Shown piece after piece: positions 13,535-38,195 of a stretch of DNA of 64,000 nt. The DNA is from Vicinamibacteria bacterium (GTDB taxonomy: Bacteria > Acidobacteriota > Vicinamibacteria > Vicinamibacterales > JAENWD01). The stretch covers positions 815 to 64,814 of the forward strand of contig CAVXNR010000003.1 of the NCBI GenBank assembly GCA_963763095.1, read 5' to 3'. Position numbers and translations under genes: made by a program. The stretch's first letter is position 1, and each line of letters opens with the position of its first letter. A model generated the notes under the pieces. The model worked only from the letters and a program-made list of their open reading frames with translations, was not told the origin of the DNA and did not search any database.

Positions 13535-14011
13535 TTAGTGTGTGGGAGCGTCGGACGGGTGGACATAAGTGATGCCGCCCGGATCACTCACCTGAACGTC
13601 GATGATCCCCCCTTCGTCACCGGTCCAGACGTAGTGGTTGCCGCCGGCCTCAAGTGCGAAGAAGGCACCTGGTTCCAGCCACGGCCCACTCTTGTCGACC
13701 GTGTCCCCAAAACCGAACCCCACTTTGCCGCTGATCAGCCACACTGCCTCGGCGTTGGGGTGTGAATGCGGCGGAACGACATAGTTGGGGGGGAATTTTA
13801 CGCGCACGACGCTCCAATCGCCCGCCGACGCGAGCACAGCGGCCTGAGCACCAGGGGGAAGGACGTCTATGGGTGCCCACTTGAGCTCAGACGAATCGGT
13901 GGTCAGGACCGGCGTCCGTTTCGCCTCCTTCTGAGCTGCCCAGGCCGGCGCAATGAGAGCAGCGCAAACAGCGACAGTCCCTGCCAACGTACAGATTGTT
14001 CGGGTTCGCAT
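13535..14011 (-). CDS. secreted cupin-domain protein
   Basis: Start MRTRTICTLAGTVAVCAALIAPAWA after GGAGGAAG. Cupin motif PPHSHPNAEAVWLISGKV. Confidence 0.8.
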   Translation of the reverse strand: MRTRTICTLAGTVAVCAALIAPAWAAQKEAKRTPVLTTDSSELKWAPIDVLPPGAQAAVLASAGDWSVVRVKFPPNYVVPPHSHPNAEAVWLISGKVGFGFGDTVDKSGPWLEPGAFFALEAGGNHYVWTGDEGGIIDVQVSDPGGITYVHPSDAPTH

Positions 14012-17482: not shown

Positions 17483-17506
17483 CTAGGCGAGCTTTCCACG
17501 GTCTAA

Positions 17507-17888
17507 GAGTCTGACTCAAAAGTCCCGGTAGCGTGCGATCCGACGGGTCATGAGCTTGATCATGGCGATCTGGAAGAGTGCCTTCACGGTCTAGGCGAAG
17601 CGCTCGACGTCGCGGGCGAGGCGGCGGTTGATGCAGGCCCAGGCGAAGGTGCGCTCGATGACCCAGGTAGAAGATCGCGTCCGCCACCCGCCGCAGGCAG
17701 GTCGTTCGCGGTCGCCCGCCCAGCCGCGCTGCCGGGAGCAATGGCGCGATTCCGCTCGGGCGCACATAGTCGCCCCGGGTGGCCGTCGTCCATGCCATCC
17801 GATCCCCCGTCGTCTCTTGCCAGAAACCACGGTGAATCAGGCCGGCGGCGGCTGCTCAACCTCTCTTAGCCACTTCTCGGACAGGCTC
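17507..17888 (-). mobile_element. internally deleted copy of the IS5-family element (MITE-like, 382 bp)
   Basis: Both terminal repeats are present (GAGTCTGACTCAAAAG at 17507; GAGCCTGTCCGAGAAG reverse complement ending 17888). The transposase is reduced to MAWTTATRGDYVRP...DAIFYL joined to ...ACINRRLARDVERFA. Inverted relative to the full copy. Confidence 0.85.
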
Positions 17889-18251
17889 TGAGTATCAATC
17901 ACTGACCAGTTCGCCATATCGCGCAGAACTACGCCTAGCTAATGGACGGGCTACCTTTTAGGCATTTTCAACCAGGCAGTTCGAAGGGCTTTGGGCTACG
18001 CCGGTCGCCATATGGGGGTGTCCCCTTCGGCAGCAGGTAAATAGTTGTCGACGATGCCGAGAAAACCGCCGAAGTTCGTCACCGCGTACGGCGACCTGCC
18101 CGCTGATCTTGTCGACCATGACGCTGCAGACACTGCCATTCCATTCCTCCGAAGGATTGATCCAGCGGTGCAACGCCAGCTGGGAAAACCATTTGACGCT
18201 GGCCGCCCGGAAGCCGCGAGCAAAGAAGGCGGCGGGGCGACCCGGCGTCGC

Positions 18252-19429: not shown

Positions 19430-20047
19430 TCAGCCAGCGATCCGGTAGACCCGACCGCGACCTTCGACCCTGTCGGAAACGATGGTCAGCCCGAGCCGCT
19501 TCTTCAGCGCGCCGGCGAAGGCGCCGCGCACCGTGTGTGGCTGCCAGCCGGTTGCCGCGACGATCTCGTCGATCGTGGCGCCCTCGGCGCGGCCGAGCAT
19601 GCCGACGAGCAGCGCCTGCTTGGTGCCCTCGCGGGTCTTGCCCCGCAGCGGCGCTGTGTGACTCGCTGCGGGGCCTTGGGCCGTCGCCGCGCCCAAGGGA
19701 CTCCGCGAGGCTGGTGAGTCTGTGTGGCCCGCTCCGGGCCGCTGCGGGGCCTCGGTCGCCTGCGACGCCCCCGGCTCGATGCCGAGCGCGTCGAGACCGG
19801 CCGGCGTGATCCGCAGCAGGATGCCGCGTCCGTCGTCGGCATTGCGCCAGAGCGTGTTGAGCGCGGGGTCGGCCTTGGCGGTGTTCTCCACGGTCTGCTC
19901 CTCGACCAGCCCGCGGGCGAGCAGCGCGGCGACCACCTTGGTCGCGGCACCGCCCCGCAGCGAGCCGGGCAAGGGCAGCAGGTTGCCGTCGGCGCGCTGC
20001 GCGGCGGCGGTCAGCAGGATCGACTGGGTGTCGGAAAGCTTCGGCAT
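19430..20047 (-). CDS. DUF3489 domain-containing protein
   Basis: MPKLSDTQSILLTAAAQRADGNLLPLP...TKQALLVGMLGRAEGATIDEIVAATGWQPHTVRGAFAGALKKRLGL. Start follows GGAGAA. Confidence 0.8.
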   Translation of the reverse strand: MPKLSDTQSILLTAAAQRADGNLLPLPGSLRGGAATKVVAALLARGLVEEQTVENTAKADPALNTLWRNADDGRGILLRITPAGLDALGIEPGASQATEAPQRPGAGHTDSPASRSPLGAATAQGPAASHTAPLRGKTREGTKQALLVGMLGRAEGATIDEIVAATGWQPHTVRGAFAGALKKRLGLTIVSDRVEGRGRVYRIAG

Positions 20048-21088: not shown

Positions 21089-21599
21089 TCAAGGGTTGCC
21101 GCCCGGCACCGTCGAAATGGCGACGAGCCACGACGGCTCAGGCTCGGGCGTCTCCTGCGGACGGAGGGATGGCGGCAGCCACGGCCAGTTCGCGGTCCGC
21201 TGCCAGAGAAGCCGCTCGACCTCGGCCCACTTGCTCCGGTCGGCCATCAGCCCGCGTAGTGCAGCCACACAGGCCCGGCCCAGCGCCACGTAGACACCGG
21301 CCCCGCCGAGGCGCAGATGCCCCACACCGCCGGCCTGACCCGCCAGCCGTGGCCGACCATGTCCGGCCCCCGCCTTCGCATAGTTGCGTTCAACGGAAGG
21401 TGGTCCAGACGATGTAGGGGATCACCACGCACATCCCGGCCAGCATCCCGTAGTTGATGACGTCCAGCGGGCCTGAGGGCAGATCGGCGCCGCCTTCATC
21501 ATCGATCTCCACCGGCTCGGGTCCGTGGATTTCGTCCCTGACCCAATCGGGTATCGTCACCCATCCCGACCGCTCGTGCATATGCTTGCCCACCAACAT
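21089..21599 (-). pseudogene. small membrane-protein family member, copy 1 (frame-disrupted)
   Basis: The two ORF pieces 21390..21599 and 21089..21325 share ...WAEVERLLWQRTANWPWLPPSLRPQETPEPEPSW with 25960-26070 at the nucleotide level. Confidence 0.3.
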
Positions 21600-21859
21600 T
21601 CCCCGAGCGCAATCTGCGGGTGGTCCGCGTTGGCGGCAACGGTGGAAGGGTGAAACGGTAAAGGCGTGCCTGACTTGCAGGGCTTTCTCCGCGCGGCGGA
21701 CAGCTACCTCGCCGCCGACCGCGCCACTTACTTATCCCATAGGTACGGTAGGAGCGAGGACACCTTTAAGGGGCCGGCCCTCCCCTTCGTCTAGCAGAGC
21801 CGACCCGACTTCTCGCACCTCGCGATGGGCACCGTCCCCACGGTGCTGAAACTAGATGA

Positions 21860-22198
21860 TCAGGAAATCAACCACGGTAAGCGTGGGGGGCGGGAACTCA
21901 GGGTCGCGATGTGTTCGCGGGCGCCTGCGTCAGTCCCGTCGGGGTCCCAGTAGAGGAATCCGTCGTCGGTGTCATAGAGCAGCCATCAGAGGCCACTGCC
22001 CCCGGCAATCGGGTCGCTTCCCGTCGACACGGAGACTTGTGAGCCGACGCCTTGGGCCGACCCATTTACCGCGCTGACGACAACGGTATCACCCTGGAGC
22101 GTCGGCGCATCGTTTCTGCGGACATTCCCCGTGACTCGTACGGCGTCTTCGATGATCGATCGTAGGTCATCGACCGCCGACCCTGTCGCGATTGGCAT
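21860..22198 (-). pseudogene. short RTX-type calcium-binding-like protein with in-frame TGA
   Basis: MPIATGSAVDDLRSIIEDAV...DPIAGGSGL-TGA-WLLYDTDDGFLYWDPDGTDAGAREHIATL. The C-terminal block is typical of RTX/hemolysin-type protein ends. GGAGGGG precedes the ATG. Confidence 0.55.
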
Positions 22199-22251
22199 CG
22201 GTTGCCCCTCCAAAGCCCGGTTCGGTTGTCTGGCGGCTATTCAGCTCGCCG

Positions 22252-22356
22252 CTAGAAGGCTGAGGCCATTGACCGATCGGCGACGAGAGTCAGCAGAAAC
22301 AGCAACAAGCCGCTGAAGGCGGCCATCCTAGGTGCGGAACGGATCGATCCCTTCAT
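22252..22356 (-). CDS. 34-aa single-TM mini-protein (cassette A)
   Basis: MKGSIRSAPRMAAFSGLLLFLLTLVADRSMASAF after the conserved CATCCAGGAGATCGC. Paralog at 27428-27544. Confidence 0.5.
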   Translation of the reverse strand: MKGSIRSAPRMAAFSGLLLFLLTLVADRSMASAF

Positions 22357-22447
22357 TTGCGATCTCCTGGATGCCGAGCCTTGGGGGAGAGAATCGCTGC
22401 GGCTACTTGCAGCGCGAACAGGGTGCCGCCCCTGCGCGACGCCGGCA

Positions 22448-22463
22448 TCTATCATCTGATAGA
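22448..22463. promoter_or_regulatory. perfect 16-bp palindrome TCTATCA-TC-TGATAGA (operator-like, site A)
   Basis: Read directly. Lies 23 nt after the regulator A stop and 91 nt before the mini-protein start. Confidence 0.6.
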
Positions 22464-22486
22464 GACAGACCCAACTTCCGCGGAAG

Positions 22487-24224
22487 TCAGGCCGACGGCA
22501 GGCGGGCAGGCTCAAAAAACTCGAGGATCGTGGGGACTAGCGCGGCCTCTATCAGGTCGAGCACCTCTGGCCAGCGGACATGAGCAACGAACTCACCCTC
22601 GTCGTGATAGCCGAGGAAGCGCCACGCCGGGTAGAGCCCGCAGTAGTCCAGTGCGGTCTCAAACGGAGCGTTGGCGTCCTGCTCGCCATGGATCAGCGTC
22701 ACCGGGCAGGCGACGTCGCCGAGCCCCTCGGGCCAATCCTGGTGGAAAAGCGCGAGCTCGGCGGCCATCGCGCCCTCCGACCAGGAGTCGGCGAAGAATA
22801 GCTTGTCGGCTGCGGCGAGAAAGGCGACCGCGATCTCCGGGTCGGCGAAGGCCTGCGCGTCAGCGGGAATTCGCGCCAGGATGCCGCGCATGTACCGCTC
22901 GAGCCCGTAGCGCGCAACCGTGGCCCGCAGGCCACGAAGCATGAACGGCAGAACTTTCGGGCTGTAACGCGCACAGGCCCGGACAAAGCGGGCCGGCGGG
23001 AACAGCCGGCGATACTGCACGTCGTTCAGGATCGGAAAGCCCGCGCCGATGCCGAAGATCGCCCGCACCCGCGCCGGGTCGGCTTTGGCCAGCAGCAGCG
23101 CGATGCGGATGTCATCGCCGGGCGCGACCACCACGGCGGAGGCGATGCGGAGCTGCAGCATCAGCGCCCGCATGTCGGCGACGGCGACCTCGAAGGTGTT
23201 GCGGCCCTTTGGAAGCAGATCGCTTCCGCACCAGCCGGCGCGGAACGGTATCAGCACCTTGAGCCCGCGGCGGGCAAAGTCCTGCTTCGGCGACCCGCGG
23301 CAGTCGCCAGAAGCCGTAGGTCGACTGCATCCAGATCACCGGCCGACCGGCAGGGTCGCCGAAGCTCAAGACCTCGATCTGCCGGCCGTCGGGCATCCTG
23401 AGGAAGCGCTGGTGCTGCTCAACGGAGCGCACGGGCCGCTTCGGCTCGGCCTCGGCCGGCACCGACTGCATCAACAGGAGTCCGAGACGCGCCACCTCAG
23501 CCTGGCTGCGAGTGGCGGTCTTCTGCAGGATGGCGTGGAGCTGCGAGCGCACGGTGCCGGCTCTGCGGCCCGTCGCAGCGGCGATCCCCGCCACGGTTTC
23601 GCCGGCCACCAGCCGTCGCATGACTTCGACTTCGGCGGCAGTGAGCGCGAACATCCGAGCTAGGAACTCGGAGACCGCCTCGGGCCAGGCGAGCTCGCTG
23701 GTGACCGCAAGTACCCGCCGTCGGGCGCCCGGCATCGCCTTCAGGTGCACGAGCAGCAACCGGTCGAACCCCGCGGGGCGCAGCTGGACGATCTCGTCGC
23801 CGCCGGTGCCTTCGGCCGCTACGTGGGCGACCCTCGACGTCAGCTCGTCAAGACCGGGCGCCTCGAGCGGCATGCCGCGGATCGAGCCGCCGGGGCGCAG
23901 CCCGAACACCGCCGCCGCGGCGTCGTTGGCAGCCAGGACCTCGCCGTCGTCGTCGAGCACCATCGCCGCGCCGAGGATGGTCGAGAGCAGGTCATTGGCC
24001 CGCGCCAGCTCGGCGGCGCGAAGCTGTTCGAGGATCTGCATCACGCCGCCGATCTGGCGCGCGAACACCGAGCCCGCGAAACCGCCGAGCCGCACCGCTC
24101 CCTTCGGATCGACGCCCGCGATCTGGGCGTCCCAGATGCCGATCAGCTCGTCGAGCCGCTCAGGGCTGACTGAGGCGTCGAACAGGTGCTCGACGAGTTC
24201 CCAGGACCGAACCTCGCCTTCCAA
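22487..24224 (-). pseudogene. LuxR-type HTH / alpha-beta-hydrolase-fold fusion regulator A (one frameshift near 23270)
   Basis: TTG start after CAGGGG. N-domain, then HTH LTAAEVEVMRRLVAGETVAGIAAATGRRAGTVRSQLHAILQKT. The hydrolase-fold half continues in ORF 22487..23257. Paralog of 27877-29581. Confidence 0.8.
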
Positions 24225-24482
24225 GTCGCATCCCCTGCATCAAGGCTGGCGGGCGATCGAAGACCGAATTGACTGTTCAACTTATGGGCGTATCAGTGCT
24301 CGTCGAATAATCGCAGGAAAAGGCCCCGGTCACAATAGTCCCGCGCGCGGCGCGCAATAATCTGTCCCACGGCGGCGTTCGCCTCCGCGCGGCGTTGGGC
24401 TTCGTCGGTCACCGGCGTCGAGGAGATGCCGGTCCGCAGCCCGAAAAGGCCGAGGTGGATTCAAGCGTCACGTGGCCGTGTC

Positions 24483-25439
24483 TCAGGTCGCTTGGTCAGG
24501 GCTCAGCTCCCTTGGATGCAGATCAATGCGTCGCCGGGCTCCCGCGGCCCCCGCGTGACGCTCGGCGCGAAACAGCACCACCATCGCCACGAGCATCAGG
24601 AGGCAGCCAGCGGCCTCCGACGGGGCGAGCCGTTCGCGCAGCACCAAGGCGGCGAGCAAAGCCGCAACGCCAGGCTCGATCAGGGTTGCCGCGAGCCCCG
24701 AGGCCGCGGACCGGCTCCGATGCAGGCCCAGCACAAATGCGAGGTACGCCGCGCCTGTCGCCGCGAGACCGGTATAGCCGAGAATTGCCACGTCCCCCGC
24801 GGGCAGCCTGCCGAGCGTGGCGAGCTCGATTCCCGGGGAGACCAGCACCACCAGCCCGAGCGCGCCTGCGGTGACCCCGAGCCCGAGGCCGGTCGCCCTC
24901 AGCGGGTGCACGTCGCGCGCCATCACCCGCGCCGCCGCCGCCACCACCGCATAGGCGACCGAGGCGGTGGCGAGCAGGGTGACCCCACGCCAGTCCACGC
25001 CCCGCCCGCCGCCCTCGTGCGGGGCGCCACCCACCATCGCCAGCACGACCCCGAGGGTCGCGATGCCGATGGCCGCCGAAGCGCCTGTCTCGGGCCAGCG
25101 CCGCAGCCAGACGGCCTCGGCCACCACCACCAACACCACTGGCGCGCAGACCGTGACCGCCACGGTCACGGTGACGCCCACCTGCGCGAAGGCGGCGAAG
25201 AGGCAGACCTGGAACACCGATCCCGCGAGCCCAAAGGTCGCCAGTAGGCCGAACGGCAGCCGCCCTGCCCAGGGCAAGCGCATCGCCTCGGCCGCGACCA
25301 GCAGGCTCAGTGCCCCGAGCGCGGTGCGGGCCAGCCCGACGAGCGCCGGGTCCGCCGCACTTTCGGCCATCAGGCTGTTCGCGACGCCCGTCGTGCCCCA
25401 GAGCACAGCGGCAACGCTGACGAGGAGGATGCCGCTCAC
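24483..25439 (-). CDS. EamA/DMT-family transporter
   Basis: Intact 318 aa (GTG start), about 10 TM segments. The LWGTTGVA and repeated EamA-like halves are typical. Confidence 0.85.
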   Translation of the reverse strand: MSGILLVSVAAVLWGTTGVANSLMAESAADPALVGLARTALGALSLLVAAEAMRLPWAGRLPFGLLATFGLAGSVFQVCLFAAFAQVGVTVTVAVTVCAPVVLVVVAEAVWLRRWPETGASAAIGIATLGVVLAMVGGAPHEGGGRGVDWRGVTLLATASVAYAVVAAAARVMARDVHPLRATGLGLGVTAGALGLVVLVSPGIELATLGRLPAGDVAILGYTGLAATGAAYLAFVLGLHRSRSAASGLAATLIEPGVAALLAALVLRERLAPSEAAGCLLMLVAMVVLFRAERHAGAAGARRRIDLHPRELSPDQAT

Positions 25440-25449
25440 GGCCGCGCCG

Positions 25450-25683
25450 TCACCTGGATACCGTGTAGCCTGCCGGCGACAATCCTGCGCATTCCTGCTC
25501 TCCCGTCAGACGCGGCGATTGCCAGTGTGACTTTGGTCGCTCCAAGTGATCATTGCGCGAACGACGCGGTGCCGGCGCGCGATCCGGCTCGCCCAGGCAG
25601 CGGTGAGAGTGGCGCCGTAGAAGCGTCTCTCGGGCGAGGATGCTCGAGGGGCCCGGCTCGGCCAGAGACGGTATGACAATCAT
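25450..25683 (-). CDS. 77-aa upstream ORF of the EamA gene
   Basis: ATG 9 nt after GGAGG, ending 10 nt before the EamA GTG. No motif recognised; could instead be a non-coding leader. Confidence 0.25.
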   Translation of the reverse strand: MIVIPSLAEPGPSSILARETLLRRHSHRCLGEPDRAPAPRRSRNDHLERPKSHWQSPRLTGEQECAGLSPAGYTVSR

Positions 25684-25775
25684 CGACGGCTTGCCTCCAA
25701 GCTCCTCTGCGAATCGAAAGCCGGTGAGTAATTCGCGAGACCGATCGAGATTCGAGTAGTTGCGCGTTGCGCGCA

Positions 25776-25791
25776 TCTATCAGGTGATAGA
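25776..25791. promoter_or_regulatory. perfect 16-bp palindrome TCTATCA-GG-TGATAGA (site C)
   Basis: Read directly. Lies about 335 nt upstream of the EamA start on the minus strand. Confidence 0.55.
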
Positions 25792-25830
25792 AGCTGCGGT
25801 GTTTCGACCTGCGCCGTCAGGCCTAGCCAG

Positions 25831-25872
25831 GGGGGGTGTGCGCAGCGCGATACCCGCGCCCCCTCTTTTTCT
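25831..25872 (+). terminator. hairpin plus T-tract (plus-strand orientation)
   Basis: GGGGGTGTG...CGCGCCCCC stem (with G-U pairs) followed by TCTTTTTCT. Abuts the stop of a minus-strand small ORF. Confidence 0.4.
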
Positions 25873-26090
25873 CAGCTGTATCCGAAGCCCCTAGTGAAGC
25901 CCCAGACCGACAGCGCCACGAAGGCGAGCGCCGGGTTCAGGTAGAGCGCGGCCAGCCACCACGGCTCAGGTTCGGGCGTCTCCTGCGGCGGCCGTAGGGA
26001 CGGCGGCGCTCACGGCTAATTCGCGGTGCTGCCGCAGAAGTTGCTCGATCTCTGGCCCAGTCTTGGGGCGCCGTTAGGCGGCCTTCCATG
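25873..26090 (-). pseudogene. small membrane-protein family member, copy 2 (frame-disrupted)
   Basis: One frame gives ...EIEQLLRQHRELA, another gives PQETPEPEPWWLAALYLNPALAFVALSVWGFTRGFGYS-stop. Related to 21089-21330. A third degenerate copy lies at about 26300-26445. Confidence 0.3.
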
Positions 26091-26251
26091 ACTGAAGCGG
26101 GCGCGACCCTGCCGCTGCATCGGCATCTACAAGACAGCCAGCCTATGTCACGAGAGCGCGGGACACTTAGCTCCGTGGGTTGTGCCGGTGTCTCGCTAAA
26201 CGATAGGTCAGCAGTCCTGTCGTGTGGCCCAACCCACGACAGGAGTAACTT

Positions 26252-26292
26252 AGGGGCGCGTGGCACGCCTGCACCCGCGCCCCTCTTTTCTC
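26252..26292 (+). terminator. intrinsic-terminator-like hairpin plus T-tract (plus-strand orientation)
   Basis: Perfect 9-bp stem AGGGGCGCG/CGCGCCCCT, 15-nt loop, then CTTTTCTC. Preceded by a second perfect 10-bp hairpin at 26214-26243. Confidence 0.55.
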
Positions 26293-26451
26293 GACTTCTA
26301 CCCAGCCCTCTGATAAACCCCTGGAGCGAGAACGCCAGCGGGCGAGCGCACGCGCACCGTGTTCGGCTGCCAGTCGTGGCGGCAATTACCTCGACGATCG
26401 CCGCGCCCTCGTGGCCGAACGGCGCCCGCCTGACATGGCGCACCGCCGCTC

Positions 26452-27336
26452 TCAGTTGAAGATCAGGTCATCGACGGCAAGTGTGTCGATGCCGATCAGC
26501 CGCACCTGGAAGTCCGCGGTGGTATCATCGTCCTCGTTGATCGCCAGGATGCCGTTGTTGCAGCGGATCTCGCCCGGAGTGCCGGAAAACGGGGCATCGC
26601 CGATGTAGGTGTTTACGTCTCCGATGTTGCCGAGGACGATCTTGTCGCGGCCTTTGGTGAAGTCGACGATGACGTCGCGTAGCGCGCCCGGCGTCAACTC
26701 GCTCATCTCAGTGTACTCGAATCTGTCGGCGCCGGCGTTGCCGTGCATTACGTCGCGGCCAGCATCACCTCGAATGCGGTCGGCGCCACCGCCCCCGAAA
26801 ATGGTGTCCCGATCGTCGCCGCCGAAGAGGTCGTCGTTGCCCGAGCCGCCGAAGATGAAGTCATCGCCGGCCCCGCCGCCGATGCCGTCCCCGCCAGCGT
26901 TACCGAAGAGAAAGTCCCCACCGAAGATTCCGACGATCACATCGCGTCCGGTGCCGCCGATGAGCAGGTCTGCTTCGTCGCTGCCGCTCAGGATGTCGTC
27001 CCCATCCTCGCCGAACAACACGGCCCCGGTAATGGGACCGTAGCCCTCGCCGGGTAGGCCGCGCACTCGGTCGTTGCCGTCGTCCCCCCAGAAGAGCTCG
27101 CGGCTCACGCCGGGCTCAGGCGCGTCTTCCTGGCCCTGGTCGATGAAGTCAGCGATGAGATCGTCGAGCTCGTCGAAGAGGTCGTCGAGACGGTCGCCGG
27201 CCACATCGATCGCGTCGTCGAGCGCGTCGACCAGCGCTTCCCCGGCATCGCCGAAGTCGTCGAGAAGGTCGTCGATGGCGTCGCCGACGTCGTCGAACAG
27301 GTCACCGAGCGAGAAGGCGGCGGATGTGGCGGGCAT
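26452..27336 (-). CDS. RTX (hemolysin-type calcium-binding repeat) protein
   Basis: Intact 294 aa. Extremely acidic N-terminus, then nonapeptide repeats GGAGDDFIFGGSGNDDLFGGDDRDTIFGGGGADRIRGDAGRDVMHGNAGADRF. Confidence 0.9.
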   Translation of the reverse strand: MPATSAAFSLGDLFDDVGDAIDDLLDDFGDAGEALVDALDDAIDVAGDRLDDLFDELDDLIADFIDQGQEDAPEPGVSRELFWGDDGNDRVRGLPGEGYGPITGAVLFGEDGDDILSGSDEADLLIGGTGRDVIVGIFGGDFLFGNAGGDGIGGGAGDDFIFGGSGNDDLFGGDDRDTIFGGGGADRIRGDAGRDVMHGNAGADRFEYTEMSELTPGALRDVIVDFTKGRDKIVLGNIGDVNTYIGDAPFSGTPGEIRCNNGILAINEDDDTTADFQVRLIGIDTLAVDDLIFN

Positions 27337-27427
27337 GGGAACTCTCCGGCTTGGGGACGGCCCCGCAGGCGACCTAAGGTGGGACCTCTGTTAGGGCCGA
27401 GGTACGGCCCGCTTGCAGTGCCGGCTT

Positions 27428-27544
27428 TCAGCCCGGCGTCAGCAGGACGTCCGCCATCGACCGATCGGCGAGGACAGTAAGCAGGATCAGGAGCAAGCTG
27501 CAGTAAGCAGCGATCCTTTGTGCAGATAGGATAGGTCCCAGCAC
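27428..27544 (-). CDS. 38-aa single-TM mini-protein (cassette B)
   Basis: GTG start 7 nt after GGAG. (M)LGPILSAQRIAAYCSLLLILLTVLADRSMADVLLTPG shares the core R-x-AA-x3-LLL-x-LLT-x2-ADRSMA with 22252-22356. Confidence 0.5.
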   Translation of the reverse strand: MLGPILSAQRIAAYCSLLLILLTVLADRSMADVLLTPG

Positions 27545-27631
27545 GGCGATCTCCTGGATGTAAGAACTGGGAGAGAGTCGCTCCCGCTGCTCGCGGTGCG
27601 ACCAGCGTGTCGCATCGCTTGTTCTCTTGCA

Positions 27632-27647
27632 TCTACCATTTGATAGA
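27632..27647. promoter_or_regulatory. 16-bp palindrome TCTACCA-TT-TGATAGA (site B, 1 mismatch)
   Basis: Read directly. Lies between the divergent mini-protein/RTX unit and regulator B. Confidence 0.55.
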
Positions 27648-27876
27648 GAACAGCTCGCTTTCGCGCCAAGCAGAGGCCAAGCTGTCGGGTGGAAGTCGGG
27701 CGGGTCAAGGGCCCCTCGTGGGGCCGAGCACCCTGTCGCCCTTGACTACGCCTCAGCCTCGGTGTCCGGCACTGCACGGCTGTTGGCCATGATCGCAGCG
27801 CACGTAGTAGCTCGCCTATAAGGAAAAGTGTGTTAAGCTCCCGTTCGAGAGGGCATCCCTTCGTCAGGGGGCAGAA

Positions 27877-29581
27877 TTGGCACGCGATCTCGTGGAGCAG
27901 CTCTACGAGACATCTCTTGAACCCGAACGCCTCGACGAACTGATTGCGGCTTGGGACGAACGCATCGGCGCAAGCGATCCCGACAGCGCGGTCGAATTGC
28001 GTCTGTTGGCGGAGCGAGATGTCATCCCCCATCTCGCGCGAGCCCTCGCGATACTCGATCGGATAACCGTTGCCGAAGCGCAGCGTGTTCAGGCGGTTCT
28101 GGCGGGTGTCGAGAGCGCCGCGATGGTCATCGGCACTTTCGGTATTGTCATCGCAGCCAATCAGCCGGCACAGGTCGCGCACGGCCTCTTTCCTGGCGAC
28201 ACGATCTCTAATGCATCATCCAACCCAGTCACGCTCGAGATCCTAGACCGGATGGACACGCTCCTAACGAGAGGGTCCGGGGCGGAAGCCGTTGTGTGCC
28301 TGCGCAGCCCGGACACCGATCGTCTCGTCGTCCTGCACCTCCGCACCATCGAGGCCGAACGCGGCACACGGCAACTGCTTGCCATCACCAGTGAGTGCAT
28401 CTGGCCGGAGCGGCTGTCGGTGCTTCTCGCGGATGCATTTGATCTTACGGCGGCGGAAATCAGTGTCCTCCGGGCGGTCACAGCTGGCGACACGGTTGCG
28501 CAAATTGCTGCCCGGGCGGGGCGCAGCCAAGGAACGGTGCGCACCCAGGTGCACGCTCTGTTGGCGAAGACGGGCGCCCGCAGCCAAGTCGAACTGGTCC
28601 GGCTGACCAACCTCTTGCTTAGGTCGCTCCCGGGCACTGATGCGAGCACACCGGACAATGACCGTCGGCCGATTCTGCGGCGGCGCCCGCTTTTGCTTCC
28701 GGACGGGCGACGGTTGGATGTCTTTCTTTTTGGCGACCCCCGGGGACGCCCGGTGCTCTGGCTGCAATCTACGCTCGGATTGTTTGTGCCGACGCGCTCG
28801 GCTGACAGCGACCTGCGCCGTCGCCGCATTCGCGTTTTGGTGCCGATCCGTGCCGGATTCGGCGCGAGTGACCCGGCGCCCGAGGGCAGCGATGTCTATG
28901 CTCTGGCCGTCGCCGACACCCTCGCCACCTTGGCTGAGTTCGGCTTGGAATTCTGCTCTCGTCGTTGCTCCGGTCGACGACATCCGCCTTGCCCTCATGC
29001 TAGCGCATGACGCCCCGCACGCGGTGCGCGGCATTTTCGCTATTGGCGCGGGCTTTCCGATCCAGACGTTCGCCCAATACCAGCGCCTCCATGCTCTCGG
29101 ACGCTTCTTCCGCATTTGCGCGAGGCATACGCCCCAGGCGCTGCCTTTCGCGGCAAAGGCTTTCTATGCCGTCGTCCGGCGATTCGGCATCGAGAGCATG
29201 ATGCGCAAGACATACGCAGAAGTCCCTGCGGATGCGGGTGCCTTCGCTGAGGCGGAAGTAGCTGAGGCTCTCATGTCAGGTTTCACTTACATGATGAGCG
29301 GGGATCATGCAGAAGCAGCATTCTGCGCCGACCTCATCAGACTACATGAACACTGGCCGGCCAGCCTCGGTCACGTGCAGTGTCCGGTCTTGCTCGTGCA
29401 CGGCGAGGAGGACCGAAACGCTCCCCTGGACACGGTCCGCGAGTACTGCGCCCGCTACCCGGAGTGGCGGCTGATTACCTTTCCCGGCGAAGGCCAGCTA
29501 ATTGGATATGCGCGGCGAGCTGAGGTATTCGACCTGATCGAGGCGGCGCTCGGGGACGGTGCTGGGCAGTCAGATCCATAG
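27877..29581 (+). pseudogene. LuxR-type HTH / alpha-beta-hydrolase-fold fusion regulator B (one frameshift near 28960)
   Basis: TTG start after CAGGGGG. HTH LTAAEISVLRAVTAGDTVAQIAARAGRSQGTVRTQVHALLAKT. The hydrolase-fold half continues in ORF 28640..29581. Confidence 0.8.
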
Positions 29582-29603
29582 AACCGCCGAAACCAGCCGA
29601 ATC

Positions 29604-29619
29604 TACATCATCTGATAGA
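29604..29619. promoter_or_regulatory. degenerate palindrome TACATCA-TC-TGATAGA (site D, 2 mismatches)
   Basis: Read directly. Lies 22 nt after the regulator B stop, the same position as site A relative to regulator A. Confidence 0.45.
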
Positions 29620-29621
29620 TG

Positions 29622-30533
29622 AAGGCAGAACCATGACGTGAGAGCCTGCTCGCGGGGCGTTCATTCCTGTTCCGCTTTGCTGCTTCTCGTACGCAGGCCA
29701 GCGCCTGTGACACGGTTTCCCGGCTCTGAGTCCGACCCGTGCTTTGCCGCCCTGCGGTTCCCTTGGCCCCTCCCCTTCCCTCCACGGCCTCAGCGCCCGG
29801 TCGCCCGGGTTTGTTCGGCCGCTTCCCTGGTACTATGGGCGGGTCCGACTTCCCTGGATCGTGCATCAGCGGGTTACGGCCGTAGCCTTGCCGCTGCGGC
29901 CTGGCGCCACCGCGCCAGGCAATCGAGGGACCTCCCGGTTTCCGTGTGGATGGTGTCCCGGCGTGCATGGGGTCTCGGACCGCGCGGGGCCGGCGTGCAC
30001 CTCGCCATGACGGTGCCTACCGTGTTGCCTTCCGCTTTTCTCTACAGCGTCGGCGCCCCGGAGATTTAACATTACGCGGCTCAATACCCAGCCCGCTGTT
30101 TCCCCTGTCAACGCTTCGACGCCGCCCTCGCGAGCGACGCCGCATGACTCGGGGCCGTTGTGGGCGGCTACCCTTCAACGTACGACTCTTTCATTCGCAT
30201 CCATCCACCGGCCTCCCGGCGCGCAGAGACTGTTAGACCGCAGTCCCCGTTCCTCCGCCAACCTCCCGACACAACCCATTCTCCGTCGTTCGCGCGGCCG
30301 AAATTTCTCGTTGTTTTCGAGGGTTGTAGCTGCGGGGCTGACCACTTCGCCCGGCGATACGGCCGAAATCCGTTCTCTCCGGGCCGGTATTCTCCAGACC
30401 TGTTGACTTTGGGTGATTTGGTGTGGTGCTTCAGGGTACTGTTTTCATTAAGAATTTTTCGCAGCAACGATCGGATTCCGACGAATTCTTTGGGTGGCGA
30501 AGGAAGTCTGAAATCCAACTCACGCCGCCAAAG
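29622..30533 (-). mobile_element. 5' fragment of a group II intron (ribozyme domains plus first ~70-85 codons of the intron-encoded RT)
   Basis: The minus-strand ORF from 29866, MHDPGKSDPPIVPGKRPNKPGRPGAEAVEGRGGAKGTAGRQSTGRTQSRETVSQALACVREAAKRN, matches the typical N-terminus of bacterial intron RT/maturases. About 660 nt of structured, non-coding-looking upstream sequence starts near GTGAG (30533). No RT domain or domain V/VI is present. Confidence 0.7.
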
Positions 30534-30574
30534 AAGCGGCCGGAACGTTGAAGGCCACTTGCAGGCTCGTCATG

Positions 30575-31156
30575 TCATCCGAGCCGGAACGCTGGCTTCG
30601 CTAGAATCCGTACAGCAATGCTGATCGCGAAGATCGCGTCGGGCCGCAGGAGTTCCGCTGCCGACGTGCGCTCGTCCATGCTCCGACGATCGAGATGGCC
30701 TCCGTCATGGACATGCCGAAAGTGCGACAGCGGGTTCCGCAGGTCAATCATTCGACGAAGATCGGCGACATCGTCGTCCGAAATCACGTCGCGCTCACGG
30801 CAGCGGCGGAGGGTGTCGGCGAACTTGATGCGCTCGGGAACGTCATCGATCAACAGGCCGGCATGCAGATAGGCGGCCAGCAGGTGTTCGACGAGGCCCT
30901 GACACAAGAGGATGGTAGCCACGAAATTGCCGTGCACGAACGACGAGCGCGCCTCGACCCACGCGAGATAGGCCGCATGGCCACCGAAGATCATCGTGCC
31001 GGAGCGCCCCATCTTGCTGCCGAGATCGGTCAGCATTCGGAAACGGCCGACCTTCTCCGGCAGATCGTCATGCAGGTCCGCCAGCAGATGCCGGACAAAA
31101 TCCAGATCCGACAAGTCTGAAAGCAGATCAGGCTGATCGCCCCCGCCCGCGGTCAC
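30575..31156 (-). CDS. HEPN-like (Rx4H motif) protein linked to the type I R-M operon
   Basis: Intact 193 aa from a GTG that overlaps the hsdS stop (GTGA). Helical, and contains DLRNPLSHFRH (R-x4-H). Confidence 0.5.
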   Translation of the reverse strand: MTAGGGDQPDLLSDLSDLDFVRHLLADLHDDLPEKVGRFRMLTDLGSKMGRSGTMIFGGHAAYLAWVEARSSFVHGNFVATILLCQGLVEHLLAAYLHAGLLIDDVPERIKFADTLRRCRERDVISDDDVADLRRMIDLRNPLSHFRHVHDGGHLDRRSMDERTSAAELLRPDAIFAISIAVRILAKPAFRLG

Positions 31157-32313
31157 GCAGCCGTCGCCCGGCCGTTGAAGACCTCGTGCAGCATGGCGGG
31201 GATCAGCGCCTCTACCTCCTGCGCGGTGTGAGCGCGGATGCTTTGAACCTCGCTCGCTTTGGCTTGGAGGCGGTCGAACCAACGCTGAATTTCCAAAGGG
31301 GGCACAGGGACTTCGATGGTTGGAAGTTCTTTGAGGACAGCGTTTTGTTGCGGGCGATCGTTCCTGGCGAATGGCCAACGACACTCGTGAATCCTTCGAG
31401 GGTCCGGAAATAGGTCATCAGAAAGCCTGGTGTTGCGAGAGCAGGATCGACCTCGCAAGTCAGCATCCGGTGATCCCCGACGGTGCCTTCGTCATACGCT
31501 GCCGCGACCGCGATGGCCTTCTCCCAAGCCATGAGATTGCTGAAAACAAGGTCGCCTTCCCTGATCCAGAAAAGGTCCTGCCAGCTGAATTCGGACCCCC
31601 GCATCGAGCGTCCGTGGAAAATGCCGTCGTCAAGAAACTGCGGACCCGCAATTCCATGTATTCCCGATCGGGATCGATCTCGACAGGCCGGCGCATAAGG
31701 GGGCGACTTCGCCCATCGGGCGAAAGGGGGCGCCGTCGATGGCGCGTTGGAAGGCTTTCAGCAGCAGGGCCTGGGTTTCGCGCTCGGCGCCGTCGATGGC
31801 ACGACGGCGTTCCTCCACCAGGGCCGCGACAGTGTCCAGCCGGTGGACGATGCGGCGCTGTTCGTCGAGGGACGGAAGGGCGATCCTGAAGCCGAGAACC
31901 TGCTCAGGATGAACACGCTGCCTGCGGTCGCCCATGCCCTTGCTGCCAACAGCAACCTGTCGCCACACATCCGGGCGCTTGAACATCCACAACAGATAGC
32001 GGGAAGCAATCGGTCGTGATCGACGTCAAACGTGGGATACTCGATTGGAGACGAAGACACCGTCCATTTCCTCAGGAACAATGGCATACGCCCCCTCGAA
32101 CGCGAAAAGGCGGCTATAGATGAATTGGTTCTTCCGCACTCTGTAAAGGGTGGATGCGCTGGTCTTCGCGCCGTCAATCGGCGGCTTGCTGAAAACGCCG
32201 CGGGCAAAACCATAGATCCCAAGATTGGGATAGCTCTGCTGCGGATCGACGCGACAAAGCTCAGACACCAAGGCCATCAAATCTGAAAGCGGAACGGTCG
32301 ACGTGGCCATCAC
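31153..32313 (-). pseudogene. hsdS: type I restriction-modification specificity subunit HsdS, at least 3 frameshifts
   Basis: Two target-recognition-domain-like halves and conserved helices (LPSLDEQRRIVHRLD; VPVPPLEIQRWFDRL) are spread over four frames. Confidence 0.8.
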
Positions 32314-33877
32314 ACGCGCTCCGCCAGGGCGGCCTTGATCTCGTCCATGATGCCGAGGATCCGCTGTTCCTGCGCGATAATCGCGTCCACGATCTCAGAT
32401 GGCGCGCGGTGATCTTCGACCTCGCCAGAATGCGGGTTCTTGATGTCGAGGTTGCAGGCGGTGACGCGATCCTGCGCGTCGCGCTGGATCAGGCCTGCCG
32501 CCGGCACCTTCCAGGCGCGCTCGTTCTCCTCGCGATTGTTCCACCAGGCCAGGCAGCCCGCGAACTCCTCATAGGCCATCGGCGCGGTCTTCGAGTATTT
32601 CTTGCGGCCCTCCGGCAGCGGCAGTCTCGTAGTACCAGATGTCCTTCGTCGGCCCGCTGGTGTCGAAGAAGAGCAGGTTCGCCGGGATGTCGGTGTAGGG
32701 CGCGAACACCCCTTCGCGCAGGCGGACGACCGTGTGCAGGTTGAACTTCTCCAGCAGGTCGGCCTTGATCCGCGCCGAGATGCCGTCGCCGAACAGCGTG
32801 CCGTTCGGCACGACGACCGCGGCCCGCCCGCGCCCGGCGCGCTTCAGCCGCCGCATGATGAGCTGCAGGAACAGCAGCGCCGTCTCGGCCGTGCGCCGGT
32901 CCTCGGGGAAGTTGTTGAGGATGCCCGCCTCCTCCTCGCCGCCGAAGGGCGGGTTGGTCAGGATCACGTCGACGCGCTGATCCTCGCCGATCTCGGCCAG
33001 ACGGAAGCGCAGGGCGTTGCCGGGGTCGATGTGCGGGGCGTCCAGGCCGTGCAGCAGGAGGTTCATCTGGGCCAGCAGGTATGGCAGCGGCTTCGCCTCG
33101 CCGCCGTGGAAGCTGCTCCTCCTGCAGGATGCGGCGCTTCTCGACCGTGTCGGCCTGGCGCTCGAGGTGCAGGAAGGCCTCGACCAGAAAGCCGCCCGTG
33201 CCGCAGGCGGGGTCGAGGACGGTCTCGCCGAGTTGCGGGTTCGTCACCTCGACCATGAAGCGCACCACCGGCCGGGGCGTGTAGAACTCGCCCGAGTCGC
33301 CGGCGGCGTCGCGCATCTCGCGCAGCATCGACTCGTAGAGGCGGCCGAGGGTGTGGACCTCGTCCGGACGAGTCGAAGTGGATGCCGTCGATCTTGTTGA
33401 CGACGTCGCGCAGCAGGTAGCCGCTCTCCATCCGGTTGGTGAAGCCCTGGAAGACGGTGGCGATCACGTCGCGCCGCTCGCGCCGCCCGTTATCGCCGCG
33501 CAAGGCGCGGAGATAGGCGAACAGGCCCGGGCCGCGGGTGCCGTCGGGGCGTTCGGCCTGCTCGGCGGTGAGAAACGACAGCAGGTCCGGCCCGGTGATC
33601 CCGTCGGCGTCCGCCGCCCAGTCGCGCCAGCGATAGGGCGGCTCGATGATCGAGCGGTAGTCCTTGCCCGCCAGTCCGCGCGCTCTTCCTCGATCCGCTC
33701 CATGTCGTCGAGGAACTTCAGGAACATGATCCAGGTGAGCATCGGCAGGCGGTCGAGGTCGCCGTTCAGCCCCTTGTCCTTGCGCATGATCTTGCGCGCG
33801 GACTTGATGATGCTGTCGAGGCGCTGGGCAGTGGTCAGTTGCTTCGGCGCAGCCTTCTTGCGGGCGGTTCTGGCCAA
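32310..33877 (-). pseudogene. hsdM: type I R-M DNA methyltransferase HsdM, about 4 frameshifts
   Basis: N-terminal HsdM_N-like LTWIMFLKFLDD, GEFYTPRPVVRFMVE, DPACGTGGFL and the catalytic ILTNPPFGG lie in different frames. Confidence 0.9.
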
Positions 33878-33894
33878 TGTCGGTCTCCTTCAAT

Positions 33895-38074: not shown

Positions 38075-38195
38075 TGAGCCTGCATCCCCGTGCCGTTATC
38101 CTCGCTCCGCTCGAAGTAGAATGGGTCCCCCCGCGACCGGACGATGCTGCACGCGCAGTGCGGCCCCGCGACGTTCGTGAAAGGAGGTTCGTGAG

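What the first reader, a model, noticed from the sequence alone, without database searches (positions are those of the whole stretch)
21860..29621. Twice-repeated cassette: LuxR-HTH/alpha-beta-hydrolase fusion regulator, palindromic operator, TM mini-peptide, RTX calcium-binding protein
- Two paralogous sets sit 4 kb apart.
- Cassette A is all on the minus strand: regulator 24224-22487, palindrome 22463-22448, 34-aa TM peptide 22356-22252, RTX-like protein 22198-21860.
- Cassette B: RTX 27336-26452 and 38-aa peptide 27544-27428 on the minus strand, palindrome 27632-27647, then regulator 27877-29581 on the plus strand with a further palindrome at 29604-29619.
- The regulators share architecture and many residues (ELVE-L-----PERLDELI--WD; HTH; PDGR---V--FGDP-GRPV-W-QST). 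Both use TTG starts behind CAGGGG.
- No type I secretion genes, acyl-homoserine-lactone synthase or other known partner is nearby.
- I know of no described system with this gene set, so it is a candidate self-contained sensing/secretion or membrane-acting module carried on mobile DNA.
Basis: partly seen in the sequence, partly recalled or inferred. Interest (0 to 1): 0.8.

Follow-up and report, generated by a model that had tools for sequence, protein, structure and literature searches.

The report
LuxR-type regulator with conserved downstream operator
Two diverged copies of an unstudied but widespread bacterial gene switch (sensor domain, DNA-binding domain and an inactive hydrolase-like domain) sit in a mobile island, each next to a conserved palindromic DNA site that most likely controls the adjacent genes for exported or membrane proteins; it is a regulator-operator pair with changeable targets, not a fixed four-part machine.

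Summary
Two paralogous regulators (44% identical once one frameshift in each is repaired), a palindrome and a 34/38-aa hydrophobic mini-ORF occur twice. Corrections:
- There are four palindromes, not three.
- Both regulators are frameshifted in this assembly.
- The "RTX" gene of cassette A has no RTX profile hit and is not homologous to the genuine RTX gene of cassette B.

The regulator belongs to a large uncharacterised family of about 580 aa: PAS-like domain, GerE/LuxR helix-turn-helix, then an alpha/beta-hydrolase fold that lacks the nucleophile and the histidine.

The conserved core is the regulator plus a 7-2-7 inverted repeat, TCTATCA-NN-TGATAGA(TGC). At up to 3 mismatches the repeat lies within 200 nt after the regulator's stop codon in 19 of 30 related loci. 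It always points at the next gene.

That next gene varies: RTX proteins, EamA exporters, small membrane or lipoproteins, a methyltransferase. The window's mini-peptide was found nowhere else. An intact ortholog of regulator B elsewhere lacks the peptide-RTX pair.

Best reading: a one-component transcription factor with its operator and swappable envelope or secretome targets, carried here in a decaying mobile island. It is a new variant of a known kind, of moderate interest.

The parts
22487..24224 (-). Regulator A. Domains: N-terminal helices, PAS-like, GerE/LuxR HTH, catalytically dead alpha/beta-hydrolase fold. TTG start. A one-base insertion near 23281 splits it into ORFs 23112-24224 and 22487-23257.
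   Evidence: The repaired 578-aa protein aligns end to end with intact homologs at 61-71% identity.
22445..22465 (-). Site A. A 7-2-7 inverted repeat, TCTATCA-GA-TGATAGA followed by TGC on the minus strand. It lies 24 nt after the regulator A stop codon and 89 nt before the peptide A start.
22357..22444 (-). Conserved leader A. It contains a block GCGATTCTCTCC that can pair with the Shine-Dalgarno sequence GGAGATCGC.
   Evidence: No covariation is available from only two sequences.
22252..22356 (-). Mini-ORF A, 34 aa: MKGSIRSAPRMAAFSGLLLFLLTLVADRSMASAF. One hydrophobic segment. Shine-Dalgarno AGGAG.
21852..22198 (-). Third gene of cassette A, about 115 aa when repaired. It has an in-frame TGA at 21986-21988 and a -1 shift in the C6 run 21885-21890. 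It ends ...PPTLTVVDFLII. It is not a demonstrable RTX protein.
24483..25439 (-). EamA/DMT exporter gene, 65% identical to the exporter that follows a related regulator in L008.
25773..25793 (-). It points at the EamA gene 334 nt away.
26452..27336 (-). RTX-B, 294 aa. Acidic N-terminal region, RTX nonapeptide repeats, serralysin-type C-terminal domain. Intact.
27428..27544 (-). Mini-ORF B, 38 aa: (M)LGPILSAQRIAAYCSLLLILLTVLADRSMADVLLTPG. GTG start and the same Shine-Dalgarno sequence as mini-ORF A.
27545..27628 (-). Conserved leader B.
27629..27649 (-). Site B: TCTATCA-AA-TGGTAGA followed by TGC on the minus strand. It points at peptide B and RTX-B, not at regulator B.
27877..29581 (+). Regulator B, 568 aa when repaired. 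TTG start. A one-base insertion near 28951 splits it. The intact ortholog in L026 is 85% identical in a single frame.
29604..29622 (+). Site C: TACATCA-TC-TGATAGA followed by TGA. It lies 22 nt after the regulator B stop and is identical to the site in L026. Its target gene, an EamA exporter in L026, is missing here. Homology to L026 ends at 29660.
29640..30560 (-). Truncated group II intron. It marks the rearrangement that removed the site C target and is not part of the system.
   Evidence: RF02005 at 29970-30189, 190 bits; the reverse-transcriptase N-terminal ORF 29603-29968 breaks off.

Best explanation
Each unit is a one-component transcription factor together with its operator.

**The protein.** It is about 580 aa. 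It has an N-terminal helical region and a PAS-like sensor domain, a central GerE/LuxR-type helix-turn-helix, and a C-terminal alpha/beta-hydrolase fold. The hydrolase fold has lost its nucleophile and its histidine. It is therefore inferred to be a ligand-binding or partner-binding domain, not an enzyme.

**The operator.** The protein is inferred to bind as a dimer to the 16-bp 7-2-7 inverted repeat TCTATCA-NN-TGATAGA. This repeat lies directly 3' of the regulator gene, in the promoter region of the next gene. The repeat is extended on one side (TGC), and that side always faces the controlled gene.

**The targets.** The controlled genes are interchangeable cargo, mostly exported or membrane proteins: RTX calcium-binding proteins, EamA exporters and small membrane or lipoproteins.

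**In this window.** Two old paralogs of the regulator and four operators sit in a degenerate mobile island.
- Two operators drive a mini-ORF followed by a probable type I secretion substrate.
- One operator drives an EamA exporter.
- One operator has lost its target to a rearrangement.

**Shown here:** the domain architecture, the loss of the catalytic triad, and the conservation, position and orientation of the site.

**Inferred only:** that this protein binds this site, whether it activates or represses, and what the signal is.
For: Architecture:
- GerE HTH and PAS hits.
- A profile of the family matches solved alpha/beta hydrolases (9wlv, E 3e-12) and NarL/RcsB-type HTH domains.
- The AF2 model has mean pLDDT 78.8, with a PAS-like sheet at 84-179, HTH helices at 183-259 and a hydrolase fold at 273-565.
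- Foldseek gives TM 0.85 to 9wlv.

Dead enzyme:
- The nucleophile column is G/T/D/A/W/M, the histidine column is Q/E, and the aspartate is invariant.
- The same holds in 111 full-length representatives of the wider family: the histidine column is Q in 74 and H in 2.

Family size:
- Intact ~580-aa members occur in Paracoccus, Amaricoccus, Rubellimicrobium and Meridianimarinicoccus.
- 1077 cluster representatives score E<=1e-30.

The site:
- Four copies lie within 7.4 kb of the window, against 0.04 expected by chance.
- In 320 kb of 32 family loci, all 21 sites with <=2 mismatches lie within about 1.3 kb of the regulator gene, in the promoter region of it or of a neighbouring gene.
- 15 of 30 loci have a site within 200 nt after the stop codon, and 19 of 30 at <=3 mismatches.
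- The TGC side always faces the next gene, including divergent upstream genes in L021 and L046.
- A 379-aa Rhizobium LuxR regulator has no hydrolase domain but the same recognition helix (GTIRTQLH). It carries the site 9 nt after its stop codon. This ties the site to the HTH.
- The 7-2-7 geometry is that of NarL-family sites (own knowledge).

Variable targets.
Against: - No binding or expression data exist; co-occurrence is the only link between the protein and the site.
- Eleven of 30 loci, mostly the divergent Amaricoccus clade with a convergent downstream gene, have no recognisable site near the gene.
- No sigma-70-like promoter was found next to the sites, although that scan is poorly suited to high-GC alphaproteobacteria.
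- Both regulators in this window carry a frameshift. Long ORFs elsewhere in the window are intact. The local copies may therefore be dead relics.
Confidence: 0.7

Rival explanations
1. It is a dedicated four-part module. Regulator, palindrome, TM mini-peptide and RTX protein would work together as one sensing, secretion or membrane-acting system. For example, the peptide might anchor or modulate the RTX protein or feed back on the regulator.
For: - The order site, leader, mini-ORF, then a gene with a type I secretion-like C-terminus occurs twice in the window.
- The mini-ORF shows a coding pattern of substitutions and an invariant LLxLLTxxADRSMA.
- In five soil loci the site is followed by a different small protein with a C-terminal TM helix. 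In three of these a GGNDTL-repeat protein follows.
- RTX genes are frequent neighbours.
Against: - The peptide was found nowhere outside the window.
- The soil small protein is not detectably related to it, and the GGNDTL-repeat protein has no RTX Pfam hit.
- The two downstream 'RTX' genes in the window are unrelated to each other.
- The regulator B ortholog lacks the pair.
- Most relatives of regulator A have other targets.
- No type I secretion genes are in the window.
Confidence: 0.15
2. The palindrome is a recombination or mobility site (an att, res or inversion site, or an element end) rather than an operator. The repeated cassettes would then reflect site-specific shuffling of gene cassettes.
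For: - Regulator B lies between two oppositely oriented sites, B and C. Inverting that segment would recreate the cassette A order.
- DNA homology between cassettes A and B stops within 2 nt of the outer edge of the site.
- The region is full of recombinases and IS elements.
- Site C lies about 40 nt from a rearrangement breakpoint.
Against: - The breakpoints relative to the L026 ortholog are at 27789 and 29660, not at the sites.
- In 32 loci from many genomes the site holds a constant position and orientation between the regulator and the next gene, without flanking recombinases.
- The site also follows a short LuxR regulator in Rhizobium chromosomal contexts.
- At 71% identity, unconstrained sequence beyond the site would have diverged beyond detection anyway.
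Confidence: 0.07
3. It is a relic without present function. The two cassettes would be decaying cargo of two related, degenerate integrative elements, with both regulators and the cassette A third gene inactivated.
For: - Frameshifts occur in regulator A, regulator B and the cassette A third gene, which also has a stop codon.
- hsdM and hsdR carry at least 10 one-base indels and an 8-nt deletion.
- Housekeeping and other ORFs of 783-1088 aa in the same window are intact.
- The region also has a truncated group II intron, a lost target of site C, and duplicated island backbone fragments.
Against: - Each regulator has only one indel and otherwise aligns perfectly with intact homologs.
- The frameshift in the third gene lies in a C6 homopolymer, a typical consensus error.
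- Related metagenome proteins from similar assemblies show the same kind of frameshift tails.
- Islands in metagenome-assembled genomes often have poorer consensus.
- This rival concerns only the local copies, not the nature of the system.
Confidence: 0.35

Closest known systems
NarL/FixJ/GerE-type (LuxR C-terminal) DNA-binding domains and their 7-2-7 sites
   Same: - The HTH matches GerE (PF00196) and solved NarL/RcsB/DesR-type domains.
- The site is two inverted heptamers separated by 2 bp, the classic NarL arrangement (own knowledge).
   Different: - There is no receiver domain.
- The HTH is central rather than C-terminal.
- The heptamer TCTATCA is unrelated to the NarL heptamer TACYYMT.
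- The input domains are a PAS-like domain plus a pseudo-hydrolase.
RsbQ-PAS bipartite sensing module (Bacillus subtilis RsbQ/RsbP and relatives; PMC3183031)
   Same: An alpha/beta-hydrolase fold and a PAS domain are combined as the input of a signalling protein. RsbQ relatives are also the ancestors of the plant D14/KAI2 receptor-hydrolases.
   Different: - In RsbQ-PAS the hydrolase is a separate protein encoded upstream, and its catalytic triad is required.
- Its outputs are PPM phosphatase, histidine kinase or GGDEF domains, never a DNA-binding domain.
- Here all parts are in one chain in the order PAS, HTH, hydrolase.
- Here the triad is lost.
- No sequence relationship to RsbQ was tested beyond weak superfamily hits to D14.
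PAS-LuxR regulators (BagY/FevT and PimM type)
   Same: A PAS-like domain is followed by a LuxR HTH. There is a weak NCBIfam hit to BagY_FevT over residues 64-244.
   Different: - The score is 27 bits against a cut-off of 700.
- Those proteins are about 200-370 aa actinobacterial cluster-situated regulators without a hydrolase domain.
LuxR-type quorum-sensing receptors (TraR and LuxR)
   Same: The same HTH superfamily, palindromic operators, and the annotation label 'LuxR'.
   Different: - No autoinducer-binding domain (PF03472) is detected.
- No AHL synthase is nearby.
- The site does not resemble a lux box.
tetO / TetR operator
   Same: The half-sites TCTATCA / TGATAGA are the same as in tetO (recalled from memory).
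   Different: - tetO has one central base (15-bp core) and these sites have two.
- No TetR gene accompanies the sites.
- The constant partner of the sites is the LuxR-type regulator.
RTX / type I secretion substrates of alphaproteobacteria (serralysin-C type calcium-binding proteins)
   Same: RTX-B has nonapeptide repeats and a Peptidase_M10_C-type C-terminal domain.
   Different: - It has no protease or other catalytic domain, only an acidic N-terminal region.
- No secretion genes are nearby.

Membership tests
GerE/LuxR C-terminal HTH superfamily (PF00196) | Four-helix HTH domain matching the GerE profile above the gathering score | tested here: met
   Regulator A scores 24.9 bits and regulator B 32.2 bits against a cut-off of 23.5. 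The family profile also matches solved RcsB, DesR and VpsT HTH domains.
LuxR-type quorum-sensing receptors | N-terminal autoinducer-binding domain (PF03472) | tested here: not met
   No such hit appears in either regulator at E<=0.1 or in the precomputed Pfam annotation of 67 homologs.
NarL/FixJ response regulators | N-terminal receiver domain with a phospho-acceptor aspartate | tested here: not met
   There is no Response_reg hit. The NarL and NarP NCBIfam hits cover only the HTH.
PAS domain | PAS fold: a five-stranded antiparallel sheet with flanking helices, and a profile match | tested here: inconclusive
   Regulator A scores 21.4 bits for PAS_4 against a cut-off of 23.1. Several homologs carry precomputed PF08448 or PF00989 hits. 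The AF2 model shows strands 84-98 and 142-179 with intervening helices. No fold search was run on this domain alone.
alpha/beta-hydrolase superfamily (fold) | Canonical alpha/beta-hydrolase fold | tested here: met
   The family profile matches PDB entry 9wlv at E 3e-12. Foldseek gives E 1e-14 and TM 0.85 relative to the target.
alpha/beta-hydrolase superfamily (active enzymes) | Catalytic triad of nucleophile (Ser, Cys or Asp in Sm-x-Nu-x-Sm), acid and His | tested here: not met
   The nucleophile column is G/T/D/A/W/M. The His column is Q/E. Only the acid is kept. In 111 wider-family members the His column is H in 2.
RsbQ-PAS bipartite module | A separate RsbQ-type hydrolase with an intact triad, encoded next to an N-terminal RsbP-type PAS domain that is coupled by a coiled coil to a PPM, HK or GGDEF output | tested here: not met
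   Here the parts form a single chain, the triad is lost and the output is an HTH. Definition taken from PMC3183031. The RsbP-PAS signature residues were not tested.
RTX calcium-binding proteins (cassette B gene) | Tandem GGxGxDxUx nonapeptides matching PF00353 | tested here: met
   HemolysinCabind E 2e-17 over 5 stretches, and Peptidase_M10_C E 1.4e-9.
RTX calcium-binding proteins (cassette A gene) | Tandem GGxGxDxUx nonapeptides matching PF00353 | tested here: not met
   No Pfam or NCBIfam hit, whether broken or repaired. There is at most one GGSGL motif. It is not homologous to RTX-B.
Type I secretion system locus | ABC transporter, membrane-fusion protein and outer-membrane factor genes adjacent to the substrate | tested here: not met
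   No LSGGQ signature occurs in any of the six frames of the window. Pfam scans of the large ORFs find none.
Type I toxin-antitoxin small hydrophobic peptides (considered for the mini-ORF) | A small TM toxin ORF with a cis-encoded or adjacent antisense RNA and a structured, SD-occluding mRNA | tested here: inconclusive
   A possible SD-sequestering pairing is conserved in both leaders, but with no covariation. No antisense promoter or RNA family was detected. Toxicity cannot be tested here.

The most novel reading that the evidence does not exclude
The catalytically dead alpha/beta-hydrolase domain is a receptor, comparable to plant GID1 or D14/KAI2. It would bind a small hydrophobic signal, or the hydrophobic mini-protein encoded next door. 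Fused in one chain with a PAS domain and a DNA-binding domain, it would give a widespread and so far unrecognised class of bacterial 'receptor-hydrolase' one-component regulators. These would switch sets of secreted RTX proteins, exporters and small membrane proteins.
Probability: 0.2. Interest if true: 0.7.

Novelty: new variant of a known kind. Interest (0 to 1): 0.45.

Why it matters
If the model holds, it defines a large family that public annotation labels only as 'LuxR C-terminal-related transcriptional regulator'. More than 1000 cluster representatives at 50% identity score E<=1e-30. The work supplies three things:

- **A predicted operator.** TCTATCA-NN-TGATAGA makes the family's regulons readable directly from sequence. 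The genes found next to the site so far are mostly envelope or secretome genes.
- **A new architecture.** A pseudo-hydrolase joined to a PAS domain and an HTH in one chain gives a tractable bacterial case of an alpha/beta-hydrolase fold reused as a sensory domain.
- **A simple test system.** The gene immediately after the regulator is the predicted target.

It does not reveal a new secretion or toxin machine.

Tried and rejected
- **Peptide homolog search.** tblastn and DNA-pattern searches over all 48 fetched loci found nothing. The weak L008 match turned out to be the signal peptide of a 244-aa protein with a C-terminal sorting-signal-like tail.
- **Source contig.** Looking up P0051, which is the window's own 370-aa ORF, returned no record.
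- **Plasmid similarity.** Only the restriction-modification genes matched. In protein mode, the family is present on only two PLSDB plasmids.
- **Literature.** Two full-text searches found no paper on this architecture.
- **Close RTX-B homologs.** They sit on 1.2-kb contigs. One has only 73 nt of upstream sequence. The other has 264 nt and no peptide.
- **Frameshifts as uniform assembly error.** I first favoured this after finding six frameshifts in hsdMR. I then rejected it as a complete explanation, because ORFs of 783-1088 aa elsewhere in the window are intact.
- **Palindrome as a terminator.** Rejected: the arms are 7-bp and AT-rich with a 2-nt loop, and no T-run follows.
- **TetR operator.** Rejected on spacing and on the absence of a TetR partner.
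- **Soil-locus GGNDTL-repeat protein.** It could not be confirmed as RTX, so it is not counted in the RTX tally.

Full report
**1. What is in the sequence**

The window is about 68% G+C. In the region 21.8-29.7 kb, the ORF table and direct reading confirm two regulator genes, two short hydrophobic ORFs and the palindromes at the stated coordinates.

Each regulator is broken into two overlapping ORFs in different frames.
- Regulator A is 23112-24224 plus 22487-23257 on the minus strand.
- Regulator B is 27877-29010 plus 28640-29581 on the plus strand.
- Both gene lengths are 1 modulo 3.
- Comparison with intact homologs places a single inserted base in each: gcaGgac near 23281, and gaaTtct near 28951.
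- The repaired proteins are 578 and 568 aa and 44% identical along their whole length. They are old paralogs, not a recent duplication.

The palindrome search found four sites, against 0.04 expected by chance in 64 kb. It lies upstream of an EamA/DMT exporter gene at 24483-25439.

Aligned, the sites share an oriented motif: TCTATCA-NN-TGATAGA followed by TGC or TGA.

**2. The other cassette parts**

- *Mini-ORFs.* They are 59% identical and share the Shine-Dalgarno block CATCCAGGAGATCGC. Their differences fall 9/4/12 by codon position, with seven synonymous changes and an invariant LLxLLTxxADRSMA. This indicates a translated, constrained ORF.
- *Leader.* The site, leader and mini-ORF form a 237-nt segment of 71% DNA identity in direct orientation. 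The leader can pair a GCGAyTCTCC block with the Shine-Dalgarno sequence. With only two sequences there is no covariation.
- *Cassette B third gene.* It is a genuine RTX protein with a serralysin-type C-terminal domain.
- *Cassette A third gene.* It has an in-frame TGA and a -1 shift in a C6 run. Even when repaired it has no Pfam or NCBIfam hit. It is not homologous to RTX-B (E 0.25). Only its last ~41 residues resemble the end of an RTX protein in L015.

So the repeated unit is regulator, site, leader and mini-ORF. It is not a four-gene set.

**3. The regulator family**

- A profile search found 67 relatives. Most are intact proteins of 570-590 aa from Paracoccus, Amaricoccus and metagenomes. 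Both repaired window proteins align with them end to end.
- An exhaustive profile search found 1077 cluster representatives at E<=1e-30. More than 100 of these match end to end at about 580 aa. The architecture is therefore widespread.
- Public names are only 'LuxR C-terminal-related transcriptional regulator' or 'pimeloyl-ACP methyl ester carboxylesterase/CsgD family regulator'.
- Domains are a weak PAS and a clear GerE HTH, followed by a C-terminal alpha/beta-hydrolase fold. The fold matches 9wlv by profile at E 3e-12, and the AF2 model has mean pLDDT 78.8. Foldseek gives TM 0.85.
- The catalytic machinery is gone. The nucleophile position is G/T/D/A/W/M and the histidine is Q/E. Only the aspartate is kept.
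- The same is true of 111 full-length representatives of the wider family, where the histidine column is H in 2.
- The recognition helix GT(V/I)R(S/T)QLH is nearly invariant.

**4. The site goes with the regulator**

I fetched 32 loci encoding relatives: 17 from genomes, 10 from metagenomes, 4 by exact protein look-up and 1 annotated plasmid.

- At up to 2 mismatches there are 21 sites in 320 kb. Every one lies within about 1.3 kb of the regulator gene, in the promoter region of it or of a neighbouring gene.
- 15 of 30 loci with enough 3' flank have a site 13-88 nt after the stop codon. At 3 mismatches this rises to 19 of 30.
- The TGC-extended side always faces the adjacent gene. This includes the divergent upstream genes in L021 and L046.
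- In the window, sites A, B and D point to minus-strand genes and site C points rightward.
- A 379-aa Rhizobium regulator has the same recognition helix but no hydrolase domain. It carries the site 9 nt after its stop codon. The same holds in four metagenome loci.
- Loci without a site mostly have a convergent downstream gene.

The 7-2-7 geometry is that of NarL-family sites (own knowledge). This is strong comparative evidence for a cognate operator. Binding itself remains inferred.

**5. The targets vary**

Genes found downstream of the site:
- RTX proteins in L002, L005, L007 and L011.
- EamA exporters in L009 and L026. In L008 and the P. liaowanqingii plasmid an exporter follows after one intervening gene.
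- A 68-aa lipoprotein-like ORF beginning MIELLISAC in several Paracoccus genomes.
- A 56-66-aa protein with a C-terminal TM helix in five soil contigs. In three of these a GGNDTL-repeat protein follows. It has no RTX Pfam hit.
- A methyltransferase, DUF6623, or an FG-GAP protein.

RTX genes lie within a few kb in 9 of 33 loci, counting window cassette B.

The window's mini-peptide has no relative in any fetched locus. It is also absent upstream of a 64%-identical RTX-B homolog.

L026 carries an intact ortholog of regulator B, 85% identical in one frame. Its site is identical to site C, and an EamA gene follows. DNA homology with the window runs only from 27789 to 29660. Two things follow.
- The peptide B and RTX-B pair is not ancestrally linked to regulator B.
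- The window has lost the target of site C, next to a truncated group II intron.

**6. Context and state of the copies**

- The left 36 kb of the window is a mosaic mobile island. It holds a DUF3987/Toprim replication-type pair, two resolvase paralogs and inverted IS5 copies around a MalT-like regulator. It also holds duplicated DUF3489 fragments, a type I restriction-modification system and a group II intron.
- A 114-nt backbone fragment is repeated downstream of both cassettes. This suggests two related elements that each carry a cassette.
- From about 36.7 kb onward, CO-dehydrogenase-type and other chromosomal genes follow.
- hsdM and hsdR carry at least ten one-base indels compared with an 87%-identical plasmid homolog.
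- Yet ORFs of 783, 906, 963 and 1088 aa in the same window are intact. The frameshifts are therefore not a uniform assembly error.
- Either the island is decaying, or its consensus is locally poor, as happens in metagenome bins. I cannot tell which without the reads.
- No ABC-transporter signature occurs anywhere in the window.

**7. Mechanism and rivals**

The best-supported model (confidence about 0.7) is a one-component regulator. Its PAS-like and pseudo-hydrolase domains receive a signal, and its HTH dimer binds the 7-2-7 site in front of the neighbouring gene. It thereby controls interchangeable envelope or secretome cargo.

Rivals:
- *Fixed four-part module (about 0.15).* It is weakened by the private distribution of the peptide and the variable targets.
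- *Recombination site (about 0.07).* It is weakened by breakpoints that do not coincide with the sites, and by the constant promoter-proximal position of the site in many unrelated contexts.
- *Local copies are relics (about 0.35).* This is not exclusive of the main model.

The sign of regulation, the ligand and the role of the mini-ORF are unknown.

**8. Comparison with what is known**

- The HTH is a member of the GerE/LuxR superfamily.
- The protein is not a quorum-sensing LuxR, because it has no autoinducer-binding domain. It is not a response regulator, because it has no receiver domain.
- The closest functional analogue is the RsbQ-PAS sensing module (PMC3183031). That module uses a separate, catalytically active hydrolase and non-DNA-binding outputs.
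- The half-sites equal those of tetO, but the spacing differs by one base and no TetR gene is present.

I rate this as a new variant of a known kind. The family is sizeable and unstudied, has an unusual architecture and comes with a readable operator. It is of moderate interest (0.45) and is not a new kind of secretion or toxin system.

Noticed in passing
window 29603-30560 (-): A group II intron, truncated. Rfam RF02005 scores 190 bits at 29970-30189. The reverse-transcriptase ORF begins near 29968 and breaks off near 29640-29660. That is exactly where homology to the regulator B ortholog locus L026 ends.
   Followed up: partly
window 32310-36262 (-): The type I restriction-modification genes hsdM and hsdR are broken into 3 and 5 frame segments. 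They carry at least 10 one-base indels and an 8-nt deletion compared with an 87%-identical intact homolog on Marinibacterium anthonyi plasmid pLA6_006. Long ORFs elsewhere in the window are intact. hsdS (~31150-32313) is also fragmented.
   Followed up: partly
window 12603-13545 and 17496-17902: Two inverted copies (88-91% identical) of an IS4/IS5-family element (DDE_Tnp_1) flank a 906-aa MalT-like AAA+/TPR/LuxR-HTH regulator at 14762-17482. The layout resembles a composite transposon.
   Followed up: no
window 8245-8524 vs 10965-11249; 11817-11959 vs 19490-19632; 21120-21229 vs 25948-26059: Several island backbone segments are duplicated at 80-91% identity: the resolvase C-terminal region, a DUF3489 gene and a small ORF encoding ...PPSLRPQETPEPEPxWL. 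This suggests two or more related integrative elements in tandem or nested, each carrying one of the cassettes.
   Followed up: partly
window 22357-22444 and 27545-27628 (-): The leader between the operator and the mini-ORF is conserved. RNAalifold pairs GCGAyTCTCC with the Shine-Dalgarno sequence GGAGATCGC, which could be translational occlusion. No covariation is available from two sequences.
   Followed up: partly
L022, L023, L025, L028, L029 (soil metagenome contigs): Downstream of the site lies a conserved 56-66-aa protein with a C-terminal TM helix (...HPFDWWDFLLLMxPIATVVLTMWW). In L022, L028 and L029 it is followed by a protein with ~24-aa repeats containing GGNDTL that matches no Pfam family. 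In L023 and L025 a different ORF (MSTT.EHNK..IRRF.EAWNNR) follows instead.
   Followed up: partly
L002-L005 and L047 (Paracoccus spp.): A conserved 68-aa ORF, MIELLISAC...(four more Cys)...REVxL, with a lipobox-like N-terminus directly follows the site. NCBI annotates it as a hypothetical protein on the P. liaowanqingii plasmid.
   Followed up: no
L008 9344-10081: A 244-aa secreted protein lies between the site and the EamA gene. It has a C-terminal VPLPPTLALMATALGGGALLRARRR tail, which looks like a VPLPA/PEP-CTERM-type sorting signal. It has no Pfam or NCBIfam hit.
   Followed up: no
window 52186-52282 and 37973-38093: Two short-period tandem repeats inside coding-looking sequence. One has a 9/15-nt period (GTTGCCGTTGCCGTGGTTCCC...). 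The other is built of 6-7-nt units (GAGCCC/GAGCCTG).
   Followed up: no
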